Source: an uncultured virus (IMG/VR IMGVR_UViG_3300032676_000720)
Taxonomy: Duplodnaviria > Heunggongvirae > Uroviricota > Caudoviricetes
Length of the DNA: 64,000 nt
Direction: 5' to 3' (one strand)
Virus record (IMG/VR): IMGVR_UViG_3300032676_000720
Shown here: piece after piece, positions 8,061-26,146 of the stretch
Numbering within the stretch: the stretch's first letter is position 1
How the letters are laid out: each line of letters begins with the position of its first letter
The notes under the pieces: generated by a model
The model's input: only the letters and a program-made list of their open reading frames with translations
Databases searched by the model: none
What the model was told of the DNA's origin: nothing
Translations under genes and position numbers: made by a program

Positions 8061-8089
8061 AGTATACAGGATATTTTGGATGAAGTCAA
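8061..8089 (-). promoter_or_regulatory. sigma70-type promoter
   Basis: TTGACT-17-TATACT. Confidence 0.7.
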
Positions 8090-8097
8090 ATGATAAA

Positions 8098-8187: not shown

Positions 8188-8197
8188 TACATATAAG

Positions 8198-8368: not shown

Positions 8369-8376
8369 ATTAATAT

Positions 8377-9471
8377 TTATTTAAAATCGTTATCGGACAA
8401 ATAATAGTCTTCAATATTAAATTTATGGATAATATTGAAATCAGTATCGATACCTTCAAACATCATACGCTGTAAGAAAACAGTTCGTAAGCTAGGCTTT
8501 TTGAGTTTATTATCGAGATAGTCTTGATTTTTATCAAATTCAAATATTTCTAATTTTGCTTGTTTTTTATACTCAACCCATTTTGTGATATTCCTAGCAT
8601 CTTGCGAGTTAATACTCCAAAGTTGGAAATCAGTTGAATCATAAAAATGGTGTAAGTATGTATTCATAAATTCTTCAGAAAAGTTATGCCATAGTTTCGG
8701 AGAGCATAACACTAATAATCTAAATCTTACTGATTGCCACTTAAAGCAAAAGTTCCACCACCAAAACCAATCAGCATTTTTTTCTATTGTTATACCGTAT
8801 GTGTCAGCTGAACGACATACTGCGTCTATTAATAATGTAGAAACTTTAGGAACTTGTATTTTGCTGTTTAAGTACGAAAATATAATATCTTTAGAAAAGC
8901 TATTATTAAAAACATCAGCTCTTTCTAACATAAAGTTTTTTAACATATCGCTACCAAATAATTGGTCGTTATGCTCACCTGTTACTAATATAATACTTTT
9001 ATCAAATAACCAAGGAATAGTTTCACTATTGATTATTTGTAATTTGCCAGCAATATAATTTCTAAAGAATTCCTGATTTTCAATTACTGCGTCATAGCTT
9101 GTTAATACTCTAATTCTATCTTTAACTTCAGCTAACGGATAATTTTCTAAAAAACTAATCAACATTCTTGTACTGTCGATGCCGCCGCTCCACATAATGC
9201 CTAATGGCTTTTGTAGTCGAATGCTAAGTTCCCATAGTTCAGCAGCTCGTTTGTTACAACAATCTCTATAAGATAAAAAATTTGATGTTAATAGCGGTAA
9301 CTCGCTACCTGGATATACTTTAGTGTTGATTGGTTGTTTAAACTGGTTAGTTCTATCTACTAACCCAACAGCATTACTAATAGTTTTGTACATTGCTTTC
9401 CAGTCAGCAACTTCTGAATATAATGGTGTCGGTAATACAGCATTAGAATTAAAATAATAAACGGATTTCAT
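8377..9471 (-). CDS. adenine-nucleotide alpha-hydrolase / asparagine-synthase-like protein
   Basis: WSGGIDST PP-loop, VTGEHNDQLFG; start moved to ATGA overlap at 9471. Confidence 0.65.
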   Translation of the reverse strand: MKSVYYFNSNAVLPTPLYSEVADWKAMYKTISNAVGLVDRTNQFKQPINTKVYPGSELPLLTSNFLSYRDCCNKRAAELWELSIRLQKPLGIMWSGGIDSTRMLISFLENYPLAEVKDRIRVLTSYDAVIENQEFFRNYIAGKLQIINSETIPWLFDKSIILVTGEHNDQLFGSDMLKNFMLERADVFNNSFSKDIIFSYLNSKIQVPKVSTLLIDAVCRSADTYGITIEKNADWFWWWNFCFKWQSVRFRLLVLCSPKLWHNFSEEFMNTYLHHFYDSTDFQLWSINSQDARNITKWVEYKKQAKLEIFEFDKNQDYLDNKLKKPSLRTVFLQRMMFEGIDTDFNIIHKFNIEDYYLSDNDFK

Positions 9472-10100
9472 GTTTCGGCATTGCCCCAAAATTCTGTATA
9501 TATTTGCATTCTTACAATATCTAATTCTTCTTGCGTAATTGCTTGGTTAATCATATCTTTGAATTTTTCTGCTAGGGCAGTAATTCTAAATTTAGTTATA
9601 TTTTCAGTCTCAATTTTCAAACTTAACTCAGCAAATACTTGTTCAACCGGACGCTCAACAATGCGAGCATACTCTTCTATCATAAGAGTATAAAATCCTT
9701 TACTAGGATCGCATTTTGTTATTTCTATATCGGCGACGGCACTAAACGCTGTCCATTTTGTTGTATCGACTCTTAATAAAGCATTTCCAGTATGGGTTTC
9801 CCATATACCAAATAAAATATGTCTGCGCTTTATAATTTCACGATTAATTAACCAAGATTCACTAACTTGAGTTGGATCAATAGGAACTAACTGTCCTGAT
9901 CGCTTGTCATTTTTCCAAACATTATCATAAAATTCTGTTCGGTTTTTAAACTTTTCATAGTTATTTACAAATGGTGTAATACCACGCACAAAGCAATCAA
10001 TAGAACTTGACGCTAATGCGTTAGCTGTAACTAATCGATTGGTAGAAGTGTAAACACAAAAATTTTCGTGACTTACTACAAGGTAGTGCATATCGTACAT
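9468..10100 (-). CDS. hypothetical protein
   Basis: 210 aa ORF, TAAGTA motif upstream, coupled to next gene. Confidence 0.7.
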   Translation of the reverse strand: MYDMHYLVVSHENFCVYTSTNRLVTANALASSSIDCFVRGITPFVNNYEKFKNRTEFYDNVWKNDKRSGQLVPIDPTQVSESWLINREIIKRRHILFGIWETHTGNALLRVDTTKWTAFSAVADIEITKCDPSKGFYTLMIEEYARIVERPVEQVFAELSLKIETENITKFRITALAEKFKDMINQAITQEELDIVRMQIYTEFWGNAET

Positions 10101-10136: not shown

Positions 10137-12623
10137 TTATTGACCTTGGATAGACCAGTCGTAGTCTACATTAACGACAACTTTGCCTTGCTTACCATAA
10201 TATGCGTATGGATCAAACTCGTCACTAGTAACTTTGATACGCTTACTACTGCCATCATCAAAATATACTGTCCAAACAAAGTATTCGCCTGGGCGCAAAC
10301 TTTCATTAACTTCGTCTTTAATCAAACGCAATGCTTCTTTGCGTACTTGAATATGACCGCCGTTATCTAAGTCTACTGTATAATATCCAGGAGCGCCTTT
10401 AAATGCGCCTGGACGGATTTCTCCAATAGTGCCCATTTGTCCAGCTTCAGGACCTTTAACAATCTTAACACGATTGCCTAAGTTCTTAGCTTCACTGATA
10501 GCTTCAGCTAACATAACATCTAGGTTTTCGATACTTTCACAATGCCATTTTCTAAGTGATAATGCTTTACGAGTTGGCTCTCCGTTGGGCTTTTTCATAG
10601 GACCCTTCATGCCACTCATACGAGCGCAAAATGATTTGCGGCGCTTATCATCTTTACTGCCTTTTTTAATTTTACTAGGCTTTTTAGTAACAGCGGTTTG
10701 TAGTTTAGATCCAGGATGTTCTTTGCGATAAGAGTCAACACCTTTCTTGTTTAAGCCGCCGTTTTTATTCTTGCCTGATTTCTTTTGCCAAGCGGCTGTT
10801 TCGTCTACAGCTTTCTTTTTAGCAATAGCAATAGCAGCTTGTTGTGCTGGGTTAGCGGCTTCTTCAACAGATTCATTAGGCACACAGTTACGCACTCGGC
10901 CACCATTTTTGCCCTTCTTAGTTCCTTCTTCGTGTTTGCCAGGCCAACATTTGGAAAAACCATTTGAATCTTTTTGACCTTTTTTGATTTCTGTAAATGT
11001 TTTACGAGCTGATTCATAGATAGCAGGTTTAGTAATATTGTATCCATTACGAACAGCCCACGATAAGAAATTATCTGATTCTTCAAGTTGACCAGTTAAT
11101 CCTTTGTAAGCACCTTTAACCATGTCAATTTGTTTTTGTCCAACTTGTTGCATAAATGATTTTTTAGGTTCAGCTTTCTTAGGTGCCTTAGGAGCTGTCA
11201 TTTGCTTAATAGCATATTCTTCAGCATCCTTGCGTAACTTAGCACCTTCTTCATCAGTCATTTCACCTAATCTAGCGGCAGCCGCTTTTTTCAATTGATT
11301 AGCGTGTTTGCCGGCACCACTTTGCATTACTGACTTAGGAGCATGGGTACTTTTTCTAAGAGGTTGCGATAAAGGATTAGAGCGAACGGTCATGTTGCCA
11401 TCAATGCCCTCATCTACTTCTTGATCATCGCCGTTAATTTCGTGTTCGTCACCTTTGTGTAAATCTGGATCAGGTTGACTCTTCATACCTTTAGCTTTAG
11501 CAATTAAATATGCTAATTCTTTATCACCCATTGGATTGTCTAACTCTTCCAAGCCGCCAAAACCTTGCCCTGGCTTAGGAGGATTTGGATCTGTACCTTT
11601 CCAGTATCCGCCAAACTTAGGACCATCTGGATGATGTGCGGCTGCAGCCATTGATCCTTCCTTCATGATAGGATTTAATGTAATCTTATCTGCTTTTTCT
11701 TTTTCGCCTTGGTTGTATAATTTCTTCTTCCAGTTATCGTGAAAGCGGCGAGCATCTTCATAGTAATCAAACTGTTTAACGGACTTGCCGGCTAAACAAA
11801 CTTCATATGGCTCTACTTTGTTAAAGTCTTGCCAACCTTCTACTTTAATTAATTCATCCTGGTCAGGCTCGCCTGGGGCAGAATCTTTCCATTCTTCGAC
11901 TGTAGCAGGAGCTTTAGTAATACCATGTTCTTTGTTAGCTTTTTTACGCCAAGCGATATAACTACCATTATTGTTTACACCACCACCATGCTCATCTAAG
12001 TCTGCTTTGCGAGCTCGCATAGCATTATGGCCTTTGGACCACAATAAATGTTCTGGCGATCCTTTTGGATGCGGATTGCTATCATATGATTTACCTTTAA
12101 TAGCGGCATGCATGCCAGCATCGTGCGGGCTTACTTTTAAACTTTCGTCTACATCGCGATTTTTGTTATTGTAGAATTTTTTAATACTACGAGCACTTGT
12201 GCGTGGCTTTGGAGCAATACGATAATCTCTGCCTGGGGCTTGTTCTTTTTTGCGACGAACTACAGCTTTAGCTTCTTCCTTGCTACCGTAAGTTCCTTCT
12301 TTAGTGCCGTCAATAAAAACTGTATATGTATAATTTGTATCTGCGTAGTCTTCTTCTAAATCAAACGCATCTAAATTACTTTGTGCTGTTCTTTCATTAT
12401 GGGCCAATGTTTCTGCGCCCGGAGCTTCATCTACTTTTAGTTTGTAATAACTGTCGCGCTCTGCTTTAGCTTTAGCGTATGCGTGACGCATAGCTTCTTT
12501 ATATTTAGGATCGTTTGATTCTTTAGCACGAGCTAAAAAGTCATCCATTTTAGCATTTAAGTCTTCAATACGACGTGCTTCAAGGTCGTCGATAGCCCCT
12601 TCAAATATATCAAATAAATTCAT
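10137..12623 (-). CDS. mosaic head-associated (poly)protein with RMF-like, KOW and other small modules
   Basis: MNLFDIFE leader; about 17 (V/L/M/I/F)-x-E motifs separating unrelated short modules. Confidence 0.65.
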   Translation of the reverse strand: MNLFDIFEGAIDDLEARRIEDLNAKMDDFLARAKESNDPKYKEAMRHAYAKAKAERDSYYKLKVDEAPGAETLAHNERTAQSNLDAFDLEEDYADTNYTYTVFIDGTKEGTYGSKEEAKAVVRRKKEQAPGRDYRIAPKPRTSARSIKKFYNNKNRDVDESLKVSPHDAGMHAAIKGKSYDSNPHPKGSPEHLLWSKGHNAMRARKADLDEHGGGVNNNGSYIAWRKKANKEHGITKAPATVEEWKDSAPGEPDQDELIKVEGWQDFNKVEPYEVCLAGKSVKQFDYYEDARRFHDNWKKKLYNQGEKEKADKITLNPIMKEGSMAAAAHHPDGPKFGGYWKGTDPNPPKPGQGFGGLEELDNPMGDKELAYLIAKAKGMKSQPDPDLHKGDEHEINGDDQEVDEGIDGNMTVRSNPLSQPLRKSTHAPKSVMQSGAGKHANQLKKAAAARLGEMTDEEGAKLRKDAEEYAIKQMTAPKAPKKAEPKKSFMQQVGQKQIDMVKGAYKGLTGQLEESDNFLSWAVRNGYNITKPAIYESARKTFTEIKKGQKDSNGFSKCWPGKHEEGTKKGKNGGRVRNCVPNESVEEAANPAQQAAIAIAKKKAVDETAAWQKKSGKNKNGGLNKKGVDSYRKEHPGSKLQTAVTKKPSKIKKGSKDDKRRKSFCARMSGMKGPMKKPNGEPTRKALSLRKWHCESIENLDVMLAEAISEAKNLGNRVKIVKGPEAGQMGTIGEIRPGAFKGAPGYYTVDLDNGGHIQVRKEALRLIKDEVNESLRPGEYFVWTVYFDDGSSKRIKVTSDEFDPYAYYGKQGKVVVNVDYDWSIQGQ

Positions 12624-12624: not shown

Positions 12625-13701
12625 CTATTTTTCTTCTATGTAATCAGCCGATTGCTCAGCGTCATGTTTGGCTTTACGACGAGCCATATACATTTCTAAT
12701 GCTATTTCACATTCTTCTAAACTGCTAAAACGACTTGGTAATTCTTTGCCAGCACGTTTGATACAAAAGCCATTGCGCTCATCGCCGTGGATCTCAACTA
12801 ATACAGAGCCGCCGCCACCTGAGCCAATGCCAACATCCTCGACTGGAACATTAACTGTTTTAACTGGAGCTGTTGCGCTTTCTGCGTATGTAGGATCAGT
12901 TAACCCAGCAGGCGCTTCGCCTTGTGCCGGAGTTTGATTTGGATCTTCGTCCAACTCATTTTCGTGTTCGCCGTATTCGTCGGCATCTTCATCATCGGCG
13001 TATTGATTGTATTCAACATTAGCAGCATTAAAACTGTGTGTTCCGTGATTGTATAAATTTACAATTATAAAATTACTGCGTTGTCCAAAATCAACAATTT
13101 CGCCAGTAGCGCCGCTAAACTGTACATCGCCAATAATTTCAACTGGGTCACCAATTCGTAATTCTTGACCTTCTTCTAAACTATCAGGGATAGCTTCTTC
13201 TACATCTTGTTCTTTTTTCTTTGCTAACTCAGCACGAGTTTGTTGTGCTAACTTGTTGCCTACGCCTGTGCCTTGTTTGTTGAAGCCCGGAGGATTGCGA
13301 AACGGTTTAGCCGGAGCCGGTGTGTATGGTGCGTCGGGATCTTGATCAGCTTCGTCGACTGATTCTTTAGACTGTAGTTCTAAATCTTTTAATTCTTTTT
13401 TCTTTAAGTCTAAGTCTTGTTTTTTCTTAGTAATTAAATCTTTGTCTTGTTTGAGTGAATCTTCTGCTGATTTTAAATAATCAACTAAACTTGCTTTAAC
13501 TTTTGATAGTACATCGTCTGACTTCTCTTCGGCAAACTCAACACCACCGACACCAGGAGTAAAATCCTCTTCGGCTTTTTTTAAATTATTAAAGAGTGCT
13601 GGTTTCTTCTGTTTAGATTCAGCAATATGCTCATGCTTAGGAGCTATGCGCCCCTCAAGTATGGCTAATTTTTCTACAATACTATAAAAGTTATGGTCCA
13701 T
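12625..13701 (-). CDS. mosaic head-associated protein with KOW/SH3-like module
   Basis: ILEG, IAES, VDEA, VEEA, LEEG, LDED motifs; LRIGDPVEI..GATGEIV module. Confidence 0.6.
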   Translation of the reverse strand: MDHNFYSIVEKLAILEGRIAPKHEHIAESKQKKPALFNNLKKAEEDFTPGVGGVEFAEEKSDDVLSKVKASLVDYLKSAEDSLKQDKDLITKKKQDLDLKKKELKDLELQSKESVDEADQDPDAPYTPAPAKPFRNPPGFNKQGTGVGNKLAQQTRAELAKKKEQDVEEAIPDSLEEGQELRIGDPVEIIGDVQFSGATGEIVDFGQRSNFIIVNLYNHGTHSFNAANVEYNQYADDEDADEYGEHENELDEDPNQTPAQGEAPAGLTDPTYAESATAPVKTVNVPVEDVGIGSGGGGSVLVEIHGDERNGFCIKRAGKELPSRFSSLEECEIALEMYMARRKAKHDAEQSADYIEEK

Positions 13702-14141
13702 TATGCTCTAGCTTCTTTCAAAAAACTTTGTAGCATCCAGATAAACTTGTTTGTGGCAGTTAATCTTTCAGCGATAAAATTTGCGATATCTTGCTTGTTC
13801 TCTGCTGTAGCAGCCGCAAAACATTCATTAAGAAGGTTGATCATAACATGGGAATCAGCTAGTAATTCCTCAAGCATGAGTTGTGCTCTAGGCACTTTAG
13901 TTTGGTCTTGAATACGGGATAACTCGTTATAACGAGTAAGGCTAGCAGGAGTGTATTCTCCCAGGGTGCGGATAAACTCCCCGAGCGGGTCAACGGCAGA
14001 ATATGCGTCCTCATACACTTTTTGTAGGAATTTATGATATTGATAGAAGTCTTTGCCTTCTACATTAAAATGAAAGAAATGGGCTTTTAAGTAATAAGCG
14101 AAGTCACTCGCGAGTAAAATTTTCATCAATTCAGCCAGCAT
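13701..14141 (-). CDS. dps: Dps / ferritin-like DNA starvation protein
   Basis: KAHFFHFNVEGKDFYQYH, D..GE.IR.LG, WML motifs. Confidence 0.9.
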   Translation of the reverse strand: MLAELMKILLASDFAYYLKAHFFHFNVEGKDFYQYHKFLQKVYEDAYSAVDPLGEFIRTLGEYTPASLTRYNELSRIQDQTKVPRAQLMLEELLADSHVMINLLNECFAAATAENKQDIANFIAERLTATNKFIWMLQSFLKEARA

Positions 14142-14177
14142 TTTAAATCCTTTAAATTATATATTATTTAGTTAAAA

Positions 14178-14814
14178 CTAAATAGAAGTGTAGTTCGCGG
14201 ATCTCGACAATCCCAACTACTCTAACGCTTATAAGGAGCAATCAGCATGAGTATTTACAGAAAAGATAGCTACCATCGTAAAATATACGAGGATCACTAT
14301 GGGCCAATTCCAAAAGATTCAGAAGGTCGTAGCTACGAAATACATCATATAGACGGAAATCACGAAAATAACAACATTGATAATCTTCTCTGTGTAAGCA
14401 TACAGGAACATTATAATATACACTATTCTCAAGGAGATTTCAAGGCTTGCCTTATAATGTCTAAAAGAATGGACATTTCTCCGGAAGAAAAATCGAGGCT
14501 AGCAAAAATAACTAACGCAGGCAAAAACAATCCAAGTTATGGGATTTATTGGTGGACTAATGGAGTTGAAGAAAAGAAATCAAAAACTCAACCGGGACCA
14601 GAATGGACTCGCGGAAGATCTGCTATATTAAAAACTCGTGTATCGTCTACTATAGTTAAAAAGGATATTCGAGCAGGGGCAAAAAATACAAGTTATGGAA
14701 AATATTGGTGGACTAACGGAATAGATAGCATTAAATCAGATAAGTGCCCAGAGGGATATTACAGAGGGGTAGGAGAAATACAGAGAATGAAGTCAAGAAA
14801 TAAGTTGGCTAAAT
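14178..14814 (+). mobile_element. HNH endonuclease element bounded by CTAAAT direct repeats
   Basis: CTAAAT at 14178-14183 and 14809-14814; structured leader; ORF antisense to neighbours and reads out past the repeat. Confidence 0.7.
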
Positions 14815-14828
14815 CTTGGATTTTTTAG
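14247..14828 (+). CDS. HNH homing endonuclease
   Basis: EIHHIDGNHENNNIDNL..H..IH; two YWWTNG DNA-binding repeats. Confidence 0.9.
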   Translation: MSIYRKDSYHRKIYEDHYGPIPKDSEGRSYEIHHIDGNHENNNIDNLLCVSIQEHYNIHYSQGDFKACLIMSKRMDISPEEKSRLAKITNAGKNNPSYGIYWWTNGVEEKKSKTQPGPEWTRGRSAILKTRVSSTIVKKDIRAGAKNTSYGKYWWTNGIDSIKSDKCPEGYYRGVGEIQRMKSRNKLAKSWIF

Positions 14829-15021
14829 TTGATTTGTATGCTTTATATTCTTTAGGAGTATTAGGAGTAAGATCGTTAGTTTCGACACCTGTAAAGAATG
14901 AGCCCTGGGGTATTCTTCGCTGTACGGCTCCTAGAGGAGTAGCCACGGGCGCAATACTTCCTGCGCTAGTACTAGCTACACTGGCGTCTTCTTTTAACCC
15001 TATAATTTCAAATAGTTTCAT
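14809..15021 (-). CDS. small putative virion protein
   Basis: MKLFEII..KE leader shared with neighbours. Confidence 0.6.
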   Translation of the reverse strand: MKLFEIIGLKEDASVASTSAGSIAPVATPLGAVQRRIPQGSFFTGVETNDLTPNTPKEYKAYKSTKKSKI

Positions 15022-15305
15022 TCTAAAATCCTAAATTTTAAGTTATCTATAACTGCTCCGGGCCCGTATTCTACTTTTAAACTTTTAACATTTAGTTGGG
15101 CTAAATGCGGGGCAACTAACTCATAGCGTAACGTGTATTCACCCGGTTCGGCACTAATTTGTAAATCTTCTTCCAAAGCACTATCAGTCCAAATCCATGT
15201 ACGTTCTGCAAATAATTCGTCATTAACATACAAACGATAGATAGGACTTAATCCTTCCCAATCGCAGTCAATATTACTCAGTATACGCACAAATTTTTTG
15301 CTCAT
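15018..15305 (-). CDS. hypothetical protein
   Basis: ATG 4 nt after TAAATA (15310-15315). Confidence 0.7.
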   Translation of the reverse strand: MSKKFVRILSNIDCDWEGLSPIYRLYVNDELFAERTWIWTDSALEEDLQISAEPGEYTLRYELVAPHLAQLNVKSLKVEYGPGAVIDNLKFRILE

Positions 15306-15323
15306 ACTGTATTTAGCGGAATT

Positions 15324-17129
15324 TTATTTAGGTGCGGCAACTAATCGAACATTCTGTGCGATATCGCCTCTGTAGCCGTGTGTTGATTCAGGGTCATCTG
15401 CCCCGGTATTGATAGGTTTGTTAGTTTTCATATTAAATGCGTAAACATTTAATGAACGCCCATAACGTTGTTCTAAATCTTGCCATACTCTTTGGCCGCC
15501 TGGGGATTGATATTTGTCACTAACTAGCGTAAGCCCTTGGTTTTTAACCAACCAAGCATACAAATCTGCGGCACGAATAGGAGCTTTAGGACCTCCATAT
15601 ATACCAAATATTTCAAATGAATGTGGTTTGTTTGTTCCGCTAATGGTCATTTGACTAACGCGAGTTTTAGGATCAAAAACGGAGTAAGCAGAATCGTTAC
15701 CCTTGTCCCACTTATATACTTCTAACTGTCCTAAGTTCCCTACTAAGTTACCAAGTAAACGTTTTTCTTTACCTGGAGGCACTGGTTCGCCTTTGTTTAC
15801 TAAACCTGACTTGTCTTGATTTTTAGTTTTGATATTGTTATGATAAATCACTTCACTTAACTCTCGTTCTTTATTTACGCGAGCCATATGCTGATCATAT
15901 GTTTCTTCATCATCGTCTGACTCTAAGGGAACATAAGCTGGCATAGAAGTCATACCCATATCTCTAGCAGCCACAGCTCTGTGGTTGCCGTCAATAATCC
16001 AGCCTTCATTATCTACTACAATAGGTTTATTTTTAATGTCTTGTGCTGTAATATCTTTAACATAATTGTAGTCAACTAAGTTGATTTGATCGTACGGACT
16101 AACTTCATCTGAATCTATATGTAAACTAGTTAGAGGTACCGTAGTGAGTTCCCATTTAGCATGATTCATTACAGCATGGTCTATAGTAAATTCATCTTTA
16201 GGATGTATTTTTTTAACATAAGACAATATTTCTTTGTTACTTTCTTCGCTGACTGGTTCCCATGACATTGGTTTAGCACCTTTAGCGACGGGTTTAAAAC
16301 CATGACGCTTATATAACTTAGTTAATGAGGCTTGACTTACATTACCCTTAGCCCAAGGATACAATGTTAACTTAATACCCGCTTCTTGTGCTTGACGCTG
16401 TAGCTCTTTAATAGCACGACTACCAACACCTTTGCGTTGTTCGGGCCCGGCCATGATCCAATCTATTTCTACTGTATCAGGTTTCATACTAGGTTTGAGT
16501 TTGAACGCGGCAAATTGCTGATCTTCGCCTTCTCCCCATACCATAACTTTATCTGCTTGACCATACGGCCAATCAGGATACTGACTATATACCCTGTCAA
16601 TAAATTCTTGTGCTTTATTTGATTCTACAGCTTCATTTAAATTTTTTTTTAAAAAAGTATCGGCTAACTTTTTACACAGTAATTTAATCTTGCTATTTTC
16701 TGTAATAATGATTGTAAACTTTTCTTGGGTATTATCTTGTGATGGATCACTATACCCGCAATAAGCTAATTTGATATGTTTTTCATTTAATAAATCTGTA
16801 CAGCTAACGCCATAGCGATTATCGCCAGTATCTTCACAGCATGGGCTCAGTGTAGTAATTACAATACTGCCCTTTGGCAATTCTCCGTACTCTTCTTCAT
16901 ACTTGTCTATGGCTGCTCGTTCCGCATGGATTCTTGAATTTCCATATAGATAATTTACACCAGTGACTAATCTACCCCGAGTATCTAATACCGCGGCGGC
17001 TACCATACCATAAAAGTCTGGATTATCTTGTTGTCCTTCGATGACCATATCGCAAAGCTCAACAAGAACTGCGTCTAGTTTTTCACGACTAAACTTTAGT
17101 TTAGGTTGGATAAAATCGTTTAAAATCAT
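15324..17129 (-). CDS. multidomain protein: CDA/RibD-like deaminase + GNAT + ParB/Srx-like + GNAT-like domain
   Basis: HAE..TLSPC..C; PEQRKGVGS..LYKRHGF; IIDGNHR; SDKYQSPGGQRVW; linkers LNEA, SEES, LSEV. Confidence 0.75.
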   Translation of the reverse strand: MILNDFIQPKLKFSREKLDAVLVELCDMVIEGQQDNPDFYGMVAAAVLDTRGRLVTGVNYLYGNSRIHAERAAIDKYEEEYGELPKGSIVITTLSPCCEDTGDNRYGVSCTDLLNEKHIKLAYCGYSDPSQDNTQEKFTIIITENSKIKLLCKKLADTFLKKNLNEAVESNKAQEFIDRVYSQYPDWPYGQADKVMVWGEGEDQQFAAFKLKPSMKPDTVEIDWIMAGPEQRKGVGSRAIKELQRQAQEAGIKLTLYPWAKGNVSQASLTKLYKRHGFKPVAKGAKPMSWEPVSEESNKEILSYVKKIHPKDEFTIDHAVMNHAKWELTTVPLTSLHIDSDEVSPYDQINLVDYNYVKDITAQDIKNKPIVVDNEGWIIDGNHRAVAARDMGMTSMPAYVPLESDDDEETYDQHMARVNKERELSEVIYHNNIKTKNQDKSGLVNKGEPVPPGKEKRLLGNLVGNLGQLEVYKWDKGNDSAYSVFDPKTRVSQMTISGTNKPHSFEIFGIYGGPKAPIRAADLYAWLVKNQGLTLVSDKYQSPGGQRVWQDLEQRYGRSLNVYAFNMKTNKPINTGADDPESTHGYRGDIAQNVRLVAAPK

Positions 17130-17130
17130 T

Positions 17131-18471
17131 TTAGTGGAACATTAGGAAACTGTTGATTACATCCAATCTGTTGGCAGCACGGTCTCCGTGTCCTGCTGGA
17201 AATATAACCACATTCCACTTAGGTTTAGGGCCTTCAGGGATGGTTAACATCTGATCGTATGTGATAATTGATGCTGGATCAATTTTATATCTAGTGGCCA
17301 ACATTTTTTTAAATTCTTCCCATGCTTCGGGACTTTTAACCTGTGTACGACCTTTGGCATCTTTAACATATTTCCCTTTAGCATCCGTAACAAACAATGT
17401 GCGGAACAAGTCTTTGGGTAATGTTACAGCATCTTTAACTGCATTTCCTTGAGCTTTGTGTAGTTCAATTTGCTTTTCTTCACCGCGCTTACTTCCCGAA
17501 CTAAAGTTAACAATAAAATTATCTGGTTTGTTGGCAGTTGCAGCCGCGGCTATTTTTGTATAAGCATAAAATTTTACATCTGGATTAGTACGAGCAACGT
17601 TAAATGCTAGATCTAAATATTCTTTACTAAAGAAATCTCCAGCATCATGCCAGCGTACAACTAATCTAATACCATGCTTGTCTGCTTTGCCTTTAAGACC
17701 TTGTATTTCTTTGTTAACCATGGCCATATATCCAGCAGGGTCATTGACTAAAAAGTTTAATGCTTGTGCGGCTGACATGCTACTAGCAGGGAACATTACA
17801 TATCCACCTTTACGAGCGTAGCAAAATAATTGACATCCGCCAGCACCAGGGCAAGTAGTAATTTCTACAAAATCGCCTGTTTCCTCGTCCACAACAACAC
17901 CGCTTAATGCTGGCAATGTTAAGTCATAAACAATTTCGCCTTCTGTAGCACTCTTACTCATTTTAGCATTAGTGCCTAATAATGAACGAGGACGGGTAGT
18001 GATTTGACGGGCCAAATCATCTAAATCCCATTCGGTACCTTCGTCATCTTTAGTAATTGCTTTGATATTGCTACCGTGTATGATTGGAGCAAATCTATCT
18101 TTCTTTGTCTTAGTACCAGTTTTAATACGATCGGCATAGCCTTGTAACTCATCGCGACTCATTCGGCGATGTGGAGCATTTAACCCAATAGCTTCATTTG
18201 TAATTTCTTCTACATTTAAAATTTTAGCCCCGGGGTGGTGAATCTCAACTTTATGTTGTGCGATTCGTGCGCTCTGAGCTTTGACCTTAAAATGTTTTGT
18301 GACACCGTATATATTTGCTGTAATTCTAAATTGTTTATTAAATTGGCCGGCTGCTAATAACCCACTAATGTCAGATTCTTCAACACCTTGATCTTCAATA
18401 TGTAACGGAGTGACTTTAAATCCACCTAGTGTTGTTTGTGCAGATTCAAAGATAAATTCATGGGCTTTCAT
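17131..18471 (-). CDS. GP88-family (radical-SAM-related) domain protein with N-terminal extra modules
   Basis: CPGAGGCQLFCYARKG, RWHDAGDF, YAYTK; MKAHEFIFES leader. Confidence 0.7.
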   Translation of the reverse strand: MKAHEFIFESAQTTLGGFKVTPLHIEDQGVEESDISGLLAAGQFNKQFRITANIYGVTKHFKVKAQSARIAQHKVEIHHPGAKILNVEEITNEAIGLNAPHRRMSRDELQGYADRIKTGTKTKKDRFAPIIHGSNIKAITKDDEGTEWDLDDLARQITTRPRSLLGTNAKMSKSATEGEIVYDLTLPALSGVVVDEETGDFVEITTCPGAGGCQLFCYARKGGYVMFPASSMSAAQALNFLVNDPAGYMAMVNKEIQGLKGKADKHGIRLVVRWHDAGDFFSKEYLDLAFNVARTNPDVKFYAYTKIAAAATANKPDNFIVNFSSGSKRGEEKQIELHKAQGNAVKDAVTLPKDLFRTLFVTDAKGKYVKDAKGRTQVKSPEAWEEFKKMLATRYKIDPASIITYDQMLTIPEGPKPKWNVVIFPAGHGDRAANRLDVINSFLMFH

Positions 18472-19946
18472 TAATACGTCCTTTTAAATAATTCTAATTC
18501 TTCCATCATCCGATGGACGATGCCATCTGGACGAAGTTCTTGTGGTTTACCTTGTGCGTCGGTGTCTAATAAAAATGCATTAGCACAACGACCAATTTCT
18601 CCTGGACGCACATCAACAGTTAGCGCCATTAAGAAGCGTGGATCTTTTGCTTCTGCGGCTGTTGGAATATAGCCCGTAGCTTCATTTAATTCGATAGCCA
18701 TAAACAATTCAGGATGTAGTTGAGCATACTTACGCATCAATACACCAGCTTTGGCATTAGCTTCATTTTCATATGGACTGCCATCTTCTCCAGCGTCTGC
18801 TGGAACTGGTCCTATTTCATTTTGTTTTTGATGTACAAGTTCGTGTGCTACAGTTCTTAATACATCCATAATATGACGGCCGCCTACACCAACTTCAAGT
18901 TCATTGGTTCCATCATTGTAGCGTCCAAAAGTTTTGTTTCTTACGGACCATTGTGGGTCACGACGAATTCTTAAGTTAATTTCTTTTTTTAATTTTAAAT
19001 GGGAAACACAAAAATTAATAAAATCTTCAATAATGTCTTTGTCATTATGTTTGTCTTCGTTAGCAAACATACAAGTACTAGGATTGGTTCCGTCTGGAGT
19101 AACACCAACTTCATCTAATTGTGCTTCGTTGGTAAACTCGGAAGTAGTAGGATTAGTACCGTCTGGTGTAATGCCAACTTCTTCGATATAGTCAGGACCA
19201 AAACCATATTTTACAGGAGCTTGTGGCTTACGCTCTTTTAAACTTAACTCTTGGCTTCTTGCTTCTTTACGAGCATTATGTAACTTTTTCAATTCACCAC
19301 TATTGCGTAGTAATTTGAAGGCTAAATTTTCTGGGCCAAACTCGCCGTGATTAGCTAGTCCTGTACCACGCATATTTTTAATTTTATCTAATAGAGCATT
19401 CATTTGGTCTATAGATTTAGATTTAATTGCTTGTTTAATACGCTTACTTAAATCCTTGTATTTGCTCTTAACGCTCATATCATCGATATCAGCGTGTTTG
19501 CGTCTAGGAATTTGTATCCATTCGTTATCTACAATACTGTAAATTCCTTGACTATGATGTTCTTCGCTTATGTCCTGTACATACAATTCAACAGGAATAC
19601 CTTTAATAGTAATTTTATGTTCGTTGTTATAGATAAACTTTTTAGCATCAAAAAGTTCACGATATATTTCTTTGTTTTCGTCATTGCCTAAATCTACAAT
19701 TAAATGTAAATCTATATCAGAATGTGGAGTATAAGAAAATGCGGCATTACTACCCGAACTTGTTATATCTTTTAAATTTAAGTTGTCGACGCCAAGTGAT
19801 TCAGCAAAGTCTGAAGCAATAGCTAATAACTGCTCACGGATTTCAGGATGTAAATGTTCGCTTTTATCCCATAATAAAGGATTAAGTTTATCGTGAAATT
19901 TAACTGCGTCTGCTAAATTGAAGGATTCTAATTGTTCAATGTTCAT
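18471..19946 (-). CDS. pol-beta-type nucleotidyltransferase + HExxH metallopeptidase domain protein
   Basis: GSNA...SDIDLH, ELYVQD; TVAHELVH..ENEANA; start set at ATG 5 nt after TAAATA (19952-19957). Confidence 0.75.
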   Translation of the reverse strand: MNIEQLESFNLADAVKFHDKLNPLLWDKSEHLHPEIREQLLAIASDFAESLGVDNLNLKDITSSGSNAAFSYTPHSDIDLHLIVDLGNDENKEIYRELFDAKKFIYNNEHKITIKGIPVELYVQDISEEHHSQGIYSIVDNEWIQIPRRKHADIDDMSVKSKYKDLSKRIKQAIKSKSIDQMNALLDKIKNMRGTGLANHGEFGPENLAFKLLRNSGELKKLHNARKEARSQELSLKERKPQAPVKYGFGPDYIEEVGITPDGTNPTTSEFTNEAQLDEVGVTPDGTNPSTCMFANEDKHNDKDIIEDFINFCVSHLKLKKEINLRIRRDPQWSVRNKTFGRYNDGTNELEVGVGGRHIMDVLRTVAHELVHQKQNEIGPVPADAGEDGSPYENEANAKAGVLMRKYAQLHPELFMAIELNEATGYIPTAAEAKDPRFLMALTVDVRPGEIGRCANAFLLDTDAQGKPQELRPDGIVHRMMEELELFKRTY

Positions 19947-19972
19947 TAATATATTTAGCGTAAAAAACAAAA

Positions 19973-19999
19973 GCCGTTACAGACTTAACTGTAACGGCC
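19973..19999. terminator. stem-loop / probable terminator
   Basis: GCCGTTACAG-ACTTAA-CTGTAACGGC, followed by T-rich run on minus strand. Confidence 0.65.
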
Positions 20000-20024
20000 T
20001 TTGCCCGTTTATAAACTACCCAGT

Positions 20025-22773: not shown

Positions 22774-22790
22774 TCTAATATTTAGCTATA

Positions 22791-23169: not shown

Positions 23170-23898
23170 TTATGCTGGGATGATTTCCAGCGTTTTTCTA
23201 ATTATACCAGGGGATATAAGCTCTAGCATAACTAGCCAGCCTTCCCCATCGTGATCTATAAAGAAATAATCTTGGGTCCGCAAATAAGGGGACTTTGATA
23301 GCCATTTAGCAAAAGCCGGAGCAACTCTTATAGTATCTTGTTGATTATTAAAAAAGTTAATTAAACTGTCTTTATTAGCTTGTGTTAGTTTTACGCTTTT
23401 AAAATAACTTCTGTGGGTAAACTTAGGAACTTTTAATTTAACAGTATTTTTAGGTCTCGATATTATAGCTTCTGTATATTCCTTATTGTCAAGGAAACTC
23501 ATAGCATTAAGTCTTTTAAGTAAAGACATATTGTTACTGTATATCCAACCCAAGTTAACCGATGTAACTAATTTAAAATCAGCGGTTGTTGTAAGTAGTA
23601 ACTCAGCTAATTCGTGAAGATCCTCAGAAGTTTTATCAGTAATATCTTTCCAACGCCTTGTTAATATAGTTTGAGCTAGTTGAGGTTGGCCGCCGGGACG
23701 AACTAAAGTCCAACGCTGTTGTGCGACTTCTCGCCACAACTTTCTACGATCAATAATAGCATCGATATAGTTGTGGTCGAGAGTCTTCATAGCACTTACT
23801 TCATCTAAAGCAAATGCTACGCAGTATCGATATTTGTCGTAAAAGTATCTATCTTTATCGACAGGCTTAAACGTTAGGAGATTCGCCATCAAGAACAA
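23170..23898 (-). CDS. hypothetical protein
   Basis: 242 aa ORF in operon context. Confidence 0.7.
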   Translation of the reverse strand: MFLMANLLTFKPVDKDRYFYDKYRYCVAFALDEVSAMKTLDHNYIDAIIDRRKLWREVAQQRWTLVRPGGQPQLAQTILTRRWKDITDKTSEDLHELAELLLTTTADFKLVTSVNLGWIYSNNMSLLKRLNAMSFLDNKEYTEAIISRPKNTVKLKVPKFTHRSYFKSVKLTQANKDSLINFFNNQQDTIRVAPAFAKWLSKSPYLRTQDYFFIDHDGEGWLVMLELISPGIIRKTLEIIPA

Positions 23899-26146
23899 TA
23901 ATACCAGAATTGTCTACAATCGCCAATGGAGCAGTTTGGATAATTGTAAAATCAATCTTATCATCGATTATGATAGCATTGACGGTGCAGTCAGATAAGC
24001 GTTCAAACAAAATCTTCTTAGACAAAGGTACACGAATCAATTCGTCAATCTTACGATTAAGTGGACGAGCACCCATCTTAGGATCATAACCTTTATCAGC
24101 TAGCATATCAATAACTGCTTCGGATAAATTAAGTCTAATATTTTTATTGTTCAAACTAACTTGTAACTGTTCAACAAATTTAAGTACAACTTTCTTAATA
24201 GCAAGGGTATCAAGTTTCTTAAACTTACAAATTTGATCGATACGATTACGCAACTCAGGTTTGAAGAAGTCCTTCATTGCTTTATCTTCTGATCCTGTTT
24301 TTTGTAGTGCTTGACCAAATCCAATGTTATTGTTTTCGTTATCGCGAGCACCTAAGTTACTTGTCATAATGATAATAGTATTCTTAAGGTTAACAGTTTT
24401 GCCGTTAGCACTAGTAATACGAGCTTCGTCTAACATCTGTAACATAATGTTAATAACATCAGGGTGAGCTTTTTCAATTTCATCAAACAGGATGATTGAA
24501 TACGGATTCTTACTAATATCACTGATTAACTTGCCGCCACCTACATTGCCATCTTCAAATCCTACATATCCTGGAGGCGCACCAATCAACGAACTTACAG
24601 TATGCTTTTCTTGATATTCTGACATATCATACTTTAATAATTGCATATCTAAGTTTGTAGCTAGTAACTTAGCAAGTTCTGTTTTACCAGTACCAGTTGG
24701 TCCTAAGAATAAGAAACTAGCAATAGGACGATTGTCGTTGCCAATACCAGAAAAGTTAATATAAACTCGCTCAAGTACGCTGTCTACTGCTTCGTCCTGA
24801 CCATATAATTTTTCTTTAATATTCGATTCAAGTTCTACAATATTAGCTGAACGCTCGTTTTGTAATCGATCCATAGGAACTTCAGTAACACGACTTAATT
24901 GTTCCATAATCATTTCTTTAGTAATAGTTACATTACCTTGATCCTTAACTCGTTCCTTAGCGCAAGCGCCGTCTAACAAGTCAATACTCTTATCTGGATT
25001 CTTACGGTCGTGTATATAACGACCTGATAAATCTACAGCGGCCGTGATAGCATCTGTATCAATTAATACATTGTGGAATGATTCTAAGCGTGGGCTAAGT
25101 CCAATAAGGATTTGTTCTGTAACTTCGTTAGTTGGTTCATCGATACTTACACGATGGAAACGACGCATTAACGCACGATCCTTTTCAAAGGACTCGTAGT
25201 ATTCTTCCCATGTTGTACTTGCGATTACCTTAAGTTTACCTTTAGTAATAGCAGGTTTTAACATATTAGCAAAGTCAAGTGTAGATTGTGAGCTAGCGCC
25301 AGCACCTTTCATAGTGTGTGCTTCGTCTACAAACAAAATACAATTACCTTTAGTTTCTAATGCGCCAATAACTTGTTTGAACTTTTCTTCAAATTCGCCG
25401 CGATATTTAGAACCAGCTAACAATGATCCAATCTCTAATGCCCATACTTCATGAGCAATTAAGAACTTAGGAACACGATTATTAATAATCTCTTGAGCTA
25501 GGCCTTCTGCGATAGCAGTTTTACCTACCCCGGGATCTCCAACCATCAATACATTAGCTTTAAATTTACGAGCTAATACTGTAATCATTTCATCAAGTTC
25601 AGCACCGCGGCCAATCATTGGCTCAAGGCGATCTTCTACCGCCATCTTAGTTAAGTTAACACAGTATTCAGTTAAAATTTCATCTGCTTGCGTAGTTGTA
25701 AGAACTACATCATCATGTTTGTAGTGTGCTTGCCAGTATTCCATGAACTCTTGTTTCTTAACACCATACTTTAATAAAAAGTAATGTGCGTGTGAATTAT
25801 TTTCAGCCATCATAGCAAGATACAAGTCGCCAGTATTCATTGAACGGCGCCCTGTGAACAATACTTGTGTCATTGCTCTGTTGAAGCAACGCTCGAGAGC
25901 ATTTGTTTTCTTAGGCTGATTGTCTTTTTTAGTAGTAACCAAACTAGTTAAACTTTGTAAGTAAGCATCTAACTCCATATCTAATAAATCTACACTAGTC
26001 CCAAAAGATTCTAGTACTTTATAAAATGGAGCATGGCGTATTAATACCAATAAGACGTGCTCAGTTAAAACATATTCGTGTTGACGCTCTTTAGCCAATT
26101 TAACAGCTTGGGCGACGATTTGTTCGATTTCTTTATTGTTTTGCAT
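23867..26146 (-). CDS. clpA: ClpA/ClpB-family AAA+ chaperone
   Basis: Clp N domain, GDPGVGKT and GPTGTGKT Walker A motifs, LIGAPPGYVG, GARPL; no ClpB M-domain. Confidence 0.9.
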   Translation of the reverse strand: MQNNKEIEQIVAQAVKLAKERQHEYVLTEHVLLVLIRHAPFYKVLESFGTSVDLLDMELDAYLQSLTSLVTTKKDNQPKKTNALERCFNRAMTQVLFTGRRSMNTGDLYLAMMAENNSHAHYFLLKYGVKKQEFMEYWQAHYKHDDVVLTTTQADEILTEYCVNLTKMAVEDRLEPMIGRGAELDEMITVLARKFKANVLMVGDPGVGKTAIAEGLAQEIINNRVPKFLIAHEVWALEIGSLLAGSKYRGEFEEKFKQVIGALETKGNCILFVDEAHTMKGAGASSQSTLDFANMLKPAITKGKLKVIASTTWEEYYESFEKDRALMRRFHRVSIDEPTNEVTEQILIGLSPRLESFHNVLIDTDAITAAVDLSGRYIHDRKNPDKSIDLLDGACAKERVKDQGNVTITKEMIMEQLSRVTEVPMDRLQNERSANIVELESNIKEKLYGQDEAVDSVLERVYINFSGIGNDNRPIASFLFLGPTGTGKTELAKLLATNLDMQLLKYDMSEYQEKHTVSSLIGAPPGYVGFEDGNVGGGKLISDISKNPYSIILFDEIEKAHPDVINIMLQMLDEARITSANGKTVNLKNTIIIMTSNLGARDNENNNIGFGQALQKTGSEDKAMKDFFKPELRNRIDQICKFKKLDTLAIKKVVLKFVEQLQVSLNNKNIRLNLSEAVIDMLADKGYDPKMGARPLNRKIDELIRVPLSKKILFERLSDCTVNAIIIDDKIDFTIIQTAPLAIVDNSGIIVLDGESPNV

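What the first reader, a model, noticed from the sequence alone, without database searches (positions are those of the whole stretch)
15324..17129. Four-enzyme fusion: deaminase + GNAT + ParB-like + GNAT-like
Seen: a Zn-deaminase domain (HAE, SPC..C) ends at LNEA, a GNAT domain (QRKGVG, LYKRHGF) ends at SEES, a ParB/Srx domain (IIDGNHR) ends at LSEV, then a fourth domain follows (SDKYQSPGGQRVW). The domains are functionally unrelated and each boundary carries an x-x-E motif, making this the clearest polyprotein example. Inference: host-takeover or anti-defence effectors acting on nucleotides or proteins.
Basis: partly seen in the sequence, partly recalled or inferred. Interest (0 to 1): 0.7.

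Follow-up and report, generated by a model that had tools for sequence, protein, structure and literature searches.

The report
Four-enzyme phage head-cargo polyprotein
A giant T4-like phage encodes one protein that strings four small enzyme-like modules together at joints matching the cutting rule of its own head-maturation protease, so it is probably loaded into the capsid, cut into four pieces and delivered into the host with the DNA, although no cut or packaging has been measured.

Summary
Window 15324-17129 (-) is one 601-aa ORF with four modules. They are a zinc deaminase (leader 1-9, module 10-166), a GNAT (167-295), a ParB/Srx-like module (296-426) and a GNAT-fold module (427-601).

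In 239 relatives the modules occur alone, reordered and recombined, in 35 architectures. The rule is hydrophobic-x-Glu: P1 Glu is kept in 142 of 160, 69 of 85 and 88 of 100 aligned sequences, while P2 varies.

That is the published cutting rule of the T4 prohead protease gp21 (L/I-X-E). The same phage, at least 320 kb, encodes a gp21 homologue and a T4-type capsid protein. Relatives that start with module B, C or D carry T4-style capsid-targeting leaders ending in that Glu.

Best reading (0.6): a capsid-targeted cargo polyprotein, cut into four enzymes in the prohead and ejected with the DNA. Nothing shows cleavage, packaging or substrates.

The closest knowns are the T4 internal proteins and Alt, and the polyvalent proteins. 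I found no printed description of enzyme polyproteins of this kind. Unchecked AI notes of this scan report the same kind of thing on other genomes. Verdict: new variant of a known kind, interest 0.7.

The parts
15324..17129 (-). 601-aa ORF (P0001) with its stop codon: the polyprotein
   Evidence: The identical protein is recorded on 14 contigs.
17103..17129 (-). Residues 1-9, MILNDFIQP: N-terminal leader that is not part of the deaminase fold. Candidate capsid-targeting leader without the terminal Glu.
   Evidence: Where the deaminase module sits inside other proteins, these 9 residues are replaced by a joint ...KLTE|N directly before KLKFSR.KLD. 159 of 167 deaminase-first relatives start with a leader-like M-x-x-x-[ED]-[FVLI].
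16632..17102 (-). Module A, residues 10-166: zinc-dependent CDA/dCMP-type deaminase
   Evidence: Pfam PF00383, E 4.4e-8, above the cut-off. H68 178/178, E70 178/178, P96 177/177 and C110 179/179 are conserved. pLDDT is mostly 81-94. The nearest solved sequence is a RibD deaminase domain, 2hxv, E 2.9e-5.
16632..16640 (-). Joint 1: L164-N165-E166, predicted cut E166|A167
   Evidence: P3 is L76/I46/V22/F11 of 168, P2 is variable, P1 is Glu in 142 of 160. Coil with pLDDT below 50 at 162-169. The next module differs among relatives from this point on.
16245..16631 (-). Module B, residues 167-295: GNAT acetyltransferase
   Evidence: Pfam Acetyltransf_1, 22.5 bits against a cut-off of 20.7. R232 59/65, G234 63/65, G236 60/65. 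Stand-alone forms of 135-144 aa carry a 9-aa leader ending in Glu.
16245..16253 (-). Joint 2: V293-S294-E295, predicted cut E295|E296
   Evidence: P3 is V25/L19/I17/T9 of 86, P1 is Glu in 69 of 85 with Asp in 8. pLDDT below 50 at 275-296.
15852..16244 (-). Module C, residues 296-426: ParB/Srx-like module (IIDGNHR)
   Evidence: PHROG ParB-like, E 2.9e-6. D380 50/51, G381 49/51, H383 49/51, R384 50/53. Weak PDB sequence hits to free serine kinase and 1vk1, E 0.05-0.24. No Pfam ParBc hit.
15852..15860 (-). Joint 3: L424-S425-E426, predicted cut E426|V427
   Evidence: P3 is L29/I26/V20/T14 of 100, P1 is Glu in 88 of 100, P1' is Val in 76 of 89. Stand-alone 180-aa forms start MRIDE|VIYH..., giving the same predicted mature N-terminus. 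pLDDT below 50 at 418-434.
15327..15851 (-). Module D, residues 427-601: GNAT-fold module of no named family
   Evidence: AF2 pLDDT 88.9. VIA Z up to 8.9 against GNAT-fold chains. No Pfam family in 55 relatives. 166 representative clusters at E <= 0.001; it is usually the last module of its protein.
17131..18471 (-). Upstream neighbour in the same gene run, 446 aa, starting MKAHEFIFE|S. A second candidate cargo protein with a GP88 domain.
   Evidence: The leader compares with T4 IPII/IPIII MKTYQEFIAE|A as read from the T4 record.
18471..19946 (-). First gene of the run (491 aa from MNIEQLES...). In other phages it is fused in one ORF to the deaminase module.
   Evidence: P0111, P0112 and P0119 (715 aa) align to it over 1-489 at 73-74% and then carry the deaminase.
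19952..19959 (-). GCTAAATA, a promoter-like octamer ahead of the three-gene run
   Evidence: All 9 gene-strand copies in the 320-kb genome lie 12-32 nt upstream of a start codon. A hairpin with a T run lies just upstream.

Best explanation
P0001 is a capsid-cargo polyprotein of a giant T4-like phage, made from four independent modules.

Inferred course: it is made late and recruited to the prohead core through its short N-terminal leader, as T4 internal proteins are through their capsid targeting sequence. The phage's gp21-type prohead protease then cuts it after E166, E295 and E426. This releases a deaminase (about 19 kDa, leader probably retained), a GNAT acetyltransferase, a ParB/Srx-like enzyme and a second GNAT-fold protein. 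The pieces stay in the head with the DNA and enter the host cell with it, where they act at once on host nucleotides, nucleic acids or proteins.

Shown here: the modules, their free shuffling among relatives, the hydrophobic-x-Glu joints, and the presence of the T4-type protease and capsid genes in the same phage.

Inferred: targeting, cleavage, packaging, ejection, and every substrate.
For: 1. Modularity. Among the 120 listed hits of each of two searches, 239 of 240 proteins could be classified, into 35 architectures. Examples are A alone, B alone, D alone, AD, ACD, ACxB and CxB; ABCD occurs in only 3.

2. Joints. Homology breaks sit on [LIVM]-x-E: 154 of 389 unique break contexts within +-2 residues, against 26.6 +- 5.2 expected. 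Per column, P3 is hydrophobic, P2 is free and P1 is Glu in 142/160, 69/85 and 88/100.

3. This is the published gp21 rule, L/I-X-E with the cut after Glu (PMC9026906, passages read). T4 Alt is cut at ITE-6 and LTE-619 (PMC5694885, passages).

4. Same phage. G000 1-74056 equals G001 161757-235812 at 100% identity. G001 has Peptidase_S77 (111 bits, E 5.6e-33) and Gp23 (E 6.7e-142). The protease is 36% identical to T4 gp21 and keeps GEL.HP and GVSSRG.GS.

5. Internal control. The gp22-like scaffold has 24 such sites in 441 aa, rank 3 of 326 proteins. P0001 has 8 in 601 aa, close to T4 Alt at 1.3 per 100 aa.

6. Leaders. Relatives starting with B, C, D or other modules begin M[RK]xxEF[ILV]xE| or MKTFKQFIAE|. 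These compare with T4 IPII/IPIII MKTYQEFIAE|A. 74 of 241 distinct N-termini fit, against 14.0 +- 3.7 in shuffles and 19 of 490 ORFs of the phage itself.

7. The predicted mature N-terminus of each module is the same whether it follows a leader or another module.

8. The full-length model has pTM 0.35 and disordered joints.

9. Catalytic motifs are conserved, so the modules are under selection as enzymes.
Against: No experimental datum exists for this protein or any relative. tblastn found no homologue in 50,697 GenBank phage records, so no virion proteome can be consulted.

P0001's own leader, MILNDFIQP, lacks the terminal Glu and is only loosely like the T4 CTS. Its targeting role is inferred from position and from relatives.

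The motif is three residues long. Only 40-57% of automatically called break points carry the strict form within 2-6 residues; many of the rest have T/A at P3 (TNE, ANE) or are offset.

The strict T4 late promoter TATAAATA is not upstream of the operon. The gene does not lie in the head-gene cluster; it is about 120 kb away in the merged sequence.

Some architectures may be inflated by proteins truncated at contig ends.
Confidence: 0.6

Rival explanations
1. An uncut multidomain 'polyvalent' effector. The four domains stay on one chain, packaged or not. The Glu-ending joints are merely favoured flexible linkers, or scars of the recombination that shuffles the modules.
For: Polyvalent phage proteins combining GNAT, ParB-like, NTase and lysozyme domains are described (PMC5512222, passages). 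The same extra modules (GH19, Pol-beta NTase, a second GNAT) occur in relatives. The joint motif is short, and not every break point carries it.
Against: A pure linker would not keep P3 hydrophobic and P1 Glu while P2 and P1' vary, across different neighbours. It would also not explain why solo modules carry a leader that ends in the same Glu directly before the same first residue. At the DNA level the 5 distinct A-end joints share only the GAA codon, so there is no recombination box (a small sample, 5 distinct among 14 loci). P0001 has no embedded peptidase of the polyvalent kind, and the neighbour gave no peptidase family either.
Confidence: 0.25
2. A cytoplasmic multifunctional enzyme of phage nucleotide or DNA metabolism that is never packaged, for example a pyrimidine deaminase with accessory acetyltransferases. 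The conserved N-terminus would be part of the enzyme or of its translation start.
For: T4 itself has a non-packaged dCMP deaminase (cd, seen in the T4 record). The window is rich in replication and nucleotide genes (PolB, clamp loader, PhoH). The gene is far from the head genes.
Against: The 9-residue leader is dispensable for the deaminase: it is replaced by a joint when the module is internal. The modules have no fixed partners, which argues against a pathway-coupled multifunctional enzyme. T4 internal-protein genes also lie away from the head cluster (T4 record).
Confidence: 0.12
3. An artefact: a chimeric assembly or a run-together of separate genes through sequencing errors.
For: Metagenomic origin. 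Many relatives come from short contigs.
Against: The identical 601-aa protein is recorded on 14 contigs. Two independent records agree at 100% over 74 kb. The frame is open with no stop. Collinear relatives at 60-62% identity cover 100% of the query (P0007, P0008).
Confidence: 0.02

Closest known systems
Phage T4 internal proteins IPI, IPII, IPIII and Alt (capsid targeting sequence plus gp21 processing, ejected with the DNA)
   Same: Both have a short N-terminal leader of the same pattern: T4 MKTYQEFIAE|A against MKAHEFIFE|S in the window neighbour and MKTFKQFIAE| and M[RK]xxEF[ILV]xE| in relatives. Both have cut sites that are hydrophobic-x-Glu. A gp21-family protease and a gp23-type capsid are in the same genome. 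The cargo is diverse and fast-changing behind a conserved leader (PMC3012670 and PMC9026906, passages). Alt is also cut at both ends at ITE and LTE (PMC5694885).
   Different: The T4 proteins are single units that lose only propeptides. Here several enzymes sit on one chain, with internal joints as the predicted cut sites, and the modules are shuffled between genes. Deaminase, GNAT and ParB/Srx-like cargo is not among the T4 internal proteins named in the passages I read. P0001's own leader lacks the Glu. Nothing is experimentally shown.
Polyvalent proteins of phages and conjugative elements (Iyer et al. 2017, PMC5512222)
   Same: Both are chains of unrelated effector domains, including GNAT, DdrB-like ParB, Pol-beta NTase and lysozyme. 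Both are predicted to travel with the DNA and to be processed into functional units, and both are built by repeated domain accretion (passages).
   Different: Those are proposed to be released by embedded zincin-like metallopeptidase domains. P0001 has none; its joints fit the prohead protease instead. [quoted passage not shown] In the passages I saw, 'deaminase' appears only as a fold comparison and in a reference title (3 occurrences).
Processed head and ejection proteins of phiKZ, 201phi2-1 and SPN3US (prohead protease gp175/gp245, MEROPS S80)
   Same: A gp21-related protease cuts after Glu in a three-residue motif. Several sites can occur per substrate, and the products stay in the head and are ejected (PMC9026906 and PMC5694885, passages).
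   Different: The motif there is S/A/G-X-E or A-X-E. The cuts mainly remove propeptides and are not reported in those passages to separate enzymes. Those phages are not T4-type in the rest of the head.
Polyproteins of eukaryotic RNA viruses
   Same: One translation product is cut by a viral protease into several enzymes. The analogy is drawn by Iyer et al..
   Different: There is no homology. Here the cutting would happen inside a prohead and would serve delivery, not replication.

Membership tests
T4-type capsid-targeted, gp21-processed internal proteins | N-terminal capsid targeting sequence (about 10 residues, ending in L/I-x-E) | tested here: inconclusive
   P0001 starts MILNDFIQP with no Glu. 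This is a separable leader that resembles MILQDLFE| and M[RK]xxEF..E| of relatives. The window neighbour 17131-18471 and many relatives carry a clear T4-like leader.
T4-type capsid-targeted, gp21-processed internal proteins | gp21-family prohead protease encoded by the same phage | tested here: met
   PF03420, 111 bits, in G001. G001 and G000 overlap at 100% over 74,056 nt. The protease is 36% identical to T4 gp21 with its conserved motifs kept.
T4-type capsid-targeted, gp21-processed internal proteins | Accessible L/I-x-E sites at the processing points | tested here: met
   LNE166, VSE295 and LSE426 lie in low-pLDDT coil and are conserved across relatives.
T4-type capsid-targeted, gp21-processed internal proteins | Physical presence in the virion, actual cleavage, ejection into the host | not testable with these tools
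   No cultured relative was found in the GenBank phage collection.
Polyvalent proteins (Iyer et al. 2017) | Two or more unrelated effector domains in one phage polypeptide | tested here: met
   Four modules.
Polyvalent proteins (Iyer et al. 2017) | [quoted passage not shown] | tested here: not met
   No such family appears in P0001 at E <= 1, none in 69 relatives at E <= 1e-4, and none in the neighbours at E <= 1. The neighbour does show a bare HELVH motif.
CDA/dCMP-type zinc deaminases (PF00383) | H-A-E and P-C...C zinc and catalytic motifs; profile score above the cut-off | tested here: met
   33.4 bits against a cut-off of 25. H68, E70, P96 and C110 are invariant in 177-179 aligned sequences. 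The spacing PC-x12-C is longer than the PCxxC that I recall as usual.
GNAT acetyltransferases (module B) | Profile score above the cut-off; Q/R-x-x-G-x-G/A acetyl-CoA loop | tested here: met
   22.5 bits against a cut-off of 20.7. QRKGVG is conserved. The loop consensus itself is recalled.
ParB/Srx superfamily (module C) | Profile match; D-G-x-H-R type motif | tested here: inconclusive
   No Pfam ParBc hit at E <= 1. PHROG ParB-like E 2.9e-6. DGNHR is conserved in 49-50 of 51. PDB sequence hits are weak, E 0.05-0.24. The fold of this module was not searched on its own.
GNAT fold (module D) | Fold match and acetyl-CoA loop | tested here: inconclusive
   Fold: Z 8.9-6.1 against GNAT-fold chains and Atlas TM 0.68-0.74. 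There is no Pfam or PDB sequence match. The loop reads QSPGGQ, which is not the usual pattern. The best match is the acetyl-CoA-binding GNAT-like end of ICL2.

The most novel reading that the evidence does not exclude
T4-like phages of uncultured, often giant, lineages use the head protease as a general 'unpacker'. Any small enzyme can be added to the injected arsenal simply by joining it to a cargo gene through a hydrophobic-x-Glu joint. One leader can then load a whole, freely reshuffled string of effectors. In this case the string is a deaminase, two GNAT-fold proteins and a ParB/Srx-like enzyme, all present in the cell from the first second of infection to blunt nucleotide- or protein-based defences.
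Probability: 0.4. Interest if true: 0.85.

Novelty: new variant of a known kind. Interest (0 to 1): 0.7.

Why it matters
Capsid targeting and gp21 processing are textbook for the small internal proteins of T4. A natural system in which the same two devices load and then separate strings of enzymes would be a new layer of phage weaponry, with a simple grammar of leader, module, joint.

It would explain many long 'fusion' ORFs in uncultured T4-like phages. It would give a sequence rule for predicting which phage proteins are injected, a question usually answerable only by virion proteomics. It would also point to injected deaminases and acetyltransferases as candidate first-strike counter-defence enzymes.

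The idea is directly testable with the existing T4 expression-packaging-processing tools.

Tried and rejected
1. DNA and protein searches of 50,697 GenBank phage records. Only the HNH gene at 14247-14828 matched at DNA level. P0001 and a D-like relative with a canonical leader (P0343) gave no tblastn match at E <= 1e-3. There is therefore no cultured relative to lean on.

2. A strict T4-like leader pattern found only 3 ORFs in the phage's own 490. A looser one found 11, and a third found 19. The leader census of the phage itself is therefore soft.

3. The T4 late promoter TATAAATA occurs 19 times on the gene strand against 28.5 expected. It stands before the scaffold gene and some others, but not before this operon. 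GCTAAATA was found instead.

4. Module D has no Pfam family in any of 55 relatives, no PDB sequence match (best E 0.35), and no Foldseek hit against the PDB at E <= 0.001. Only the exhaustive structural aligner and the Atlas gave the GNAT fold.

5. An embedded or neighbouring polyvalent-type metallopeptidase was not found.

6. A recombination box at the joints was not seen, but only 5 distinct DNA joints were available.

7. The earlier-findings look-up for this genome returned nothing.

8. I rejected a 2A-type skipping site and inteins on reading the joints, since no such motifs are visible. I did not test them formally.

9. The fold of module C alone, and a complex of the protease with a joint, were not run.
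Full report
THE OBJECT. Window 15324-17129 on the minus strand is a single open frame of 601 codons plus stop. The window belongs to a virus record of 158,513 nt (G000). Its first 74,056 nt are 100% identical to the last 74,056 nt of a second record, G001, of 235,812 nt. The two are therefore overlapping pieces of one phage genome of at least 320,269 nt. The surrounding genes are those of a large T4-like phage: B-family DNA polymerase, clamp loader, PhoH, ClpB, DnaJ, lysis genes and homing endonucleases.

THE FOUR MODULES.
- Module A, residues 10-166, matches Pfam dCMP_cyt_deam_1 above its cut-off (33.4 against 25 bits). H68, E70, P96 and C110 are invariant in 177-179 aligned relatives. The nearest solved sequence is a RibD deaminase domain (E 2.9e-5).
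- Module B, residues 167-295, matches Acetyltransf_1 just above its cut-off (22.5 against 20.7 bits), with a conserved QRKGVG loop.
- Module C, residues 296-426, has no Pfam hit. It does hit eight PHROG families named ParB-like (best E 2.9e-6). Its DGNHR motif is kept in 49-50 of 51 relatives. Its weak PDB sequence hits are free serine kinase and 1vk1 (E 0.05-0.24).
- Module D, residues 427-601, has no family. No Pfam hit appeared in 55 relatives and no PDB sequence hit. Folded alone with 55 relatives it gives pLDDT 88.9 and pTM 0.85. An exhaustive structural comparison gives Z 8.9 (rmsd 2.8, 112 aligned) to the GNAT-like acetyl-CoA-binding end of ICL2/Rv1916, followed by Z 7.6-6.1 to acetyltransferases. 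32 of the 50 rows shown are so titled. Foldseek alone was below its threshold, and the Atlas agrees with the GNAT fold (TM 0.68-0.74).

The ParB/Srx call is the softest of the four.

THE ARCHITECTURE IS NOT FIXED. A search of 5.8 billion proteins gave 208 hits of near length and 369 shorter ones; 120 of each were listed. I mapped these 240 proteins on P0001 and could classify 239. They fall into 35 module orders, counting any unrelated stretch of at least 45 residues as 'x'. Examples are Ax 90, A 18, Bx 17, ACx 14, AxD 11, D 5, ACD 3, CxBx 2 and ACxBx 1; ABCD occurs in only 3. Some of these proteins are cut at contig ends, which inflates the count somewhat.

Modules are 60-90% identical while their neighbours differ. 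Other modules found in these chains are a GH19 lysozyme-like domain, a second GNAT type, a Pol-beta nucleotidyltransferase, DUF6886, and small basic peptides beginning NFADG. The first gene of the local three-gene run (18471-19946) is fused to the deaminase in other phages (P0111, P0112, P0119). The full-length AlphaFold model has pTM 0.35. Its segments below pLDDT 50 include 162-169, 275-296 and 418-434, which are the three joints.

THE JOINTS. In every relative the sequence stops being alike right after a Glu that is preceded, two residues earlier, by L, I, V or M, and less often T, A or F. Examples are LNE|A, LRE|E, ITE|N, ELGE|NFADG, VNE|I and KTNE|V.

Counted blindly, 154 of 389 unique right-hand break contexts have [LIVM]-x-E within +-2 residues. 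Random positions give 26.6 +- 5.2, with a maximum of 46 in 1000 trials. The figures are 199 of 389 within +-4 and 220 of 389 within +-6. Of 242 well-supported contexts, 151 have the strict motif within +-4. Many of the 91 misses carry TNE or ANE, or are offset by the aligner.

Per column, P3 is L76/I46/V22/F11 of 168, V25/L19/I17/T9 of 86 and L29/I26/V20/T14 of 100. P1 is Glu in 142 of 160, 69 of 85 and 88 of 100. P2 is free. P0001 holds only 8 [LIVM]-x-E sites. The three joints are the only ones in low-confidence coil; the other five lie in or beside helices and strands of the folded domains. The five distinct DNA versions of the A-end joint share only the GAA codon, so the constraint is on the peptide and not on a recombination box (small sample).

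THE PROTEASE. The rule hydrophobic-x-Glu with the cut after Glu is the published specificity of the T4 prohead protease gp21, L/I-X-E (PMC9026906, passages read). T4 Alt is cut at ITE-6 and LTE-619 (PMC5694885, passages). G001, the same phage, encodes a Peptidase_S77 protein (E 5.6e-33, above the cut-off). It is 36% identical to T4 gp21 over 146 residues and keeps the GEL.HP and GVSSRG.GS stretches. It lies between a gp22-like scaffold gene and the portal gene, next to a gp23-type capsid gene (E 6.7e-142, 37% identical to T4 gp23).

There is an internal control. The scaffold, which in T4 is shredded by gp21, has 24 [LIVM]-x-E sites in 441 residues, rank 3 of 326 proteins of this phage; T4 gp22 has 21 in 269. 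P0001 has 1.3 per 100 residues, the same as T4 Alt.

THE LEADERS. T4 IPII and IPIII begin MKTYQEFIAE|A and IPI begins MKTFKEFTS (read from the T4 record). The first ten residues of IPIII suffice to load foreign proteins into the head (PMC9026906).

Relatives of P0001 that begin with module B start MRAREFITE|S, MRAQEFIFE|S, MKIREVIVE|S and the like. C-first ones start MILQDLFE|T or MRASEFIVE|T. Solo D proteins of 180 residues start MRIDE|VIYH. More distant D-family proteins start MKTFKQFIAE|, MKSYKEFVLE| or MRTFKEYLAE|.

74 of 241 distinct N-termini, with the deaminase type set aside, fit one loose pattern. Shuffles give 14.0 +- 3.7, and 19 of 490 ORFs of the phage itself fit. In each case the residue after the leader's Glu is the same residue that follows the joint Glu when the module is internal. 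The predicted mature N-terminus is thus constant.

P0001's own first nine residues, MILNDFIQP, are a separable leader: they are replaced by ...KLTE|N when the deaminase is internal. They lack the Glu, so they may target without being removed. In T4 an Asp at position 10 blocks processing but not targeting (PMC9026906). The gene just upstream, 17131-18471, starts MKAHEFIFE|S. The three-gene run is preceded by GCTAAATA, an octamer whose 9 gene-strand copies in the genome all lie 12-32 nt before a start codon. One of these is a gene with a weak PHROG match to a virion structural protein (E 4.2e-6), and two are genes that I took for tail-fibre genes from their N-termini alone, without a test. This is weak support for late expression.

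READING. The best explanation (0.6) is a capsid-cargo polyprotein. It would be loaded into the prohead core, cut at E166, E295 and E426 by the gp21-type protease, and delivered with the DNA as four separate enzymes. What the enzymes do is open. The conserved catalytic motifs say they are active, and the analogy with T4 IPI (anti-restriction) and Alt (host RNA polymerase modification) suggests first-strike host take-over or counter-defence (PMC3012670, PMC9026906).

The rivals are an uncut polyvalent-type effector (0.25), a non-packaged metabolic multi-enzyme (0.12) and an artefact (0.02).

The main weaknesses are as follows. There is no experiment. There is no cultured relative. The protein's own leader is poor. 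The motif is three residues long. The strict T4 late promoter is absent. The gene lies far from the head genes, although the internal-protein genes of T4 do too.

WHAT IS KNOWN. The T4 internal proteins and Alt share the leader, the protease and the site rule, but they are single units. The polyvalent proteins of Iyer et al. (PMC5512222) share the idea of many effector domains on one injected chain that is then processed. However, they rely on embedded metallopeptidases, which are absent here. The paper sets the Alt-family ARTs of T4-like phages apart from genuine polyvalent proteins. The phiKZ-type head proteins share Glu-specific processing by a related protease, with another motif.

I made six literature searches and read passages of six papers (PMC3012670, PMC9026906, PMC5694885, PMC5512222, PMC9503650, PMC7824862). 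I found no description of natural enzyme polyproteins jointed by prohead-protease sites in T4-like phages. Subscription journals are outside that library, and I opened no supplements.

This scan's own earlier notes report the same kind of thing on other genomes; these are unchecked AI notes. I reached the reading before seeing them (onward). They are not independent evidence.

VERDICT. This is a new variant of a known kind, interest 0.7.

Noticed in passing
window 19952-19959, 15310-15317, 22779-22786, 40281-40288, 49474-49481, 50398-50405 (minus strand), and three more outside the window: The octamer GCTAAATA occurs 9 times on the gene strand of the merged 320-kb genome, every time 12-32 nt upstream of a start codon. 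In five cases only 4-6 nt separate it from the ATG, so those mRNAs would be nearly leaderless. It looks like this phage's variant of a T4-type late promoter.
   Followed up: partly
window 14247-14828 (+): An HNH homing-endonuclease gene on the opposite strand sits inside the minus-strand block of candidate cargo genes. It is the only part of 14000-20000 with DNA similarity to GenBank phages: 71% to the I-TevIII region of T4-group phages, in 85 records.
   Followed up: no
G000:C1:1-74056 = G001:C1:161757-235812: The record G001 is rated 100% complete, yet G000 continues 84 kb beyond its end with a 74-kb overlap at 100% identity. The genome is therefore at least 320 kb, and the completeness estimates of both records are off.
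   Followed up: yes
window 23867-26146, 26210-27022, 37063-37458; L005:6738-7650; L006:7296-8106 and 10764-11954: The phage carries a full chaperone and protease kit: ClpB, DnaJ, two GroES-like genes, Hsp20, and ClpP-like, ClpX-like and ClpS-like genes.
   Followed up: no
window 14809-15021 (-), 12625-13701 (-), 10137-12623 (-); G000 beyond the window (window-scale 77061-78188): Further ORFs have leader-like starts followed by hydrophobic-x-Glu: a 70-aa basic protein MKLFEIIGLKE|D, a 358-aa acidic protein MDHNFYSIVEKLAILE|G, an 828-aa protein MNLFDIFE|G with DUF6321, and a 375-aa protein MRLFEFQDEQLNE|G that also follows a GCTAAATA. The cargo set may be larger than the three-gene run.
   Followed up: partly
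window 13701-14141 (-): A Dps/ferritin-like gene (Pfam Ferritin, E 6.5e-17) lies inside the same block. It has the second-highest density of [LIVM]-x-E sites in the genome, 6.2 per 100 aa.
   Followed up: no
L003:1136-1990, 7910-8413, 8752-9552 (G000 upstream of the window): QueE-like, QueD-like and GTP cyclohydrolase genes suggest 7-deazaguanine modification of the phage DNA.
   Followed up: no
relatives P0016-P0025, P0128, P0133 and others: A small basic module recurs as a spacer or C-terminal tail of these chains. It starts E|NFADGK, runs about 50-60 residues, and ends ...KKTNE| or ...GRKGQLARWQLNMRRGKKK. It may be a DNA-binding peptide like the basic internal peptides of T4.
   Followed up: no
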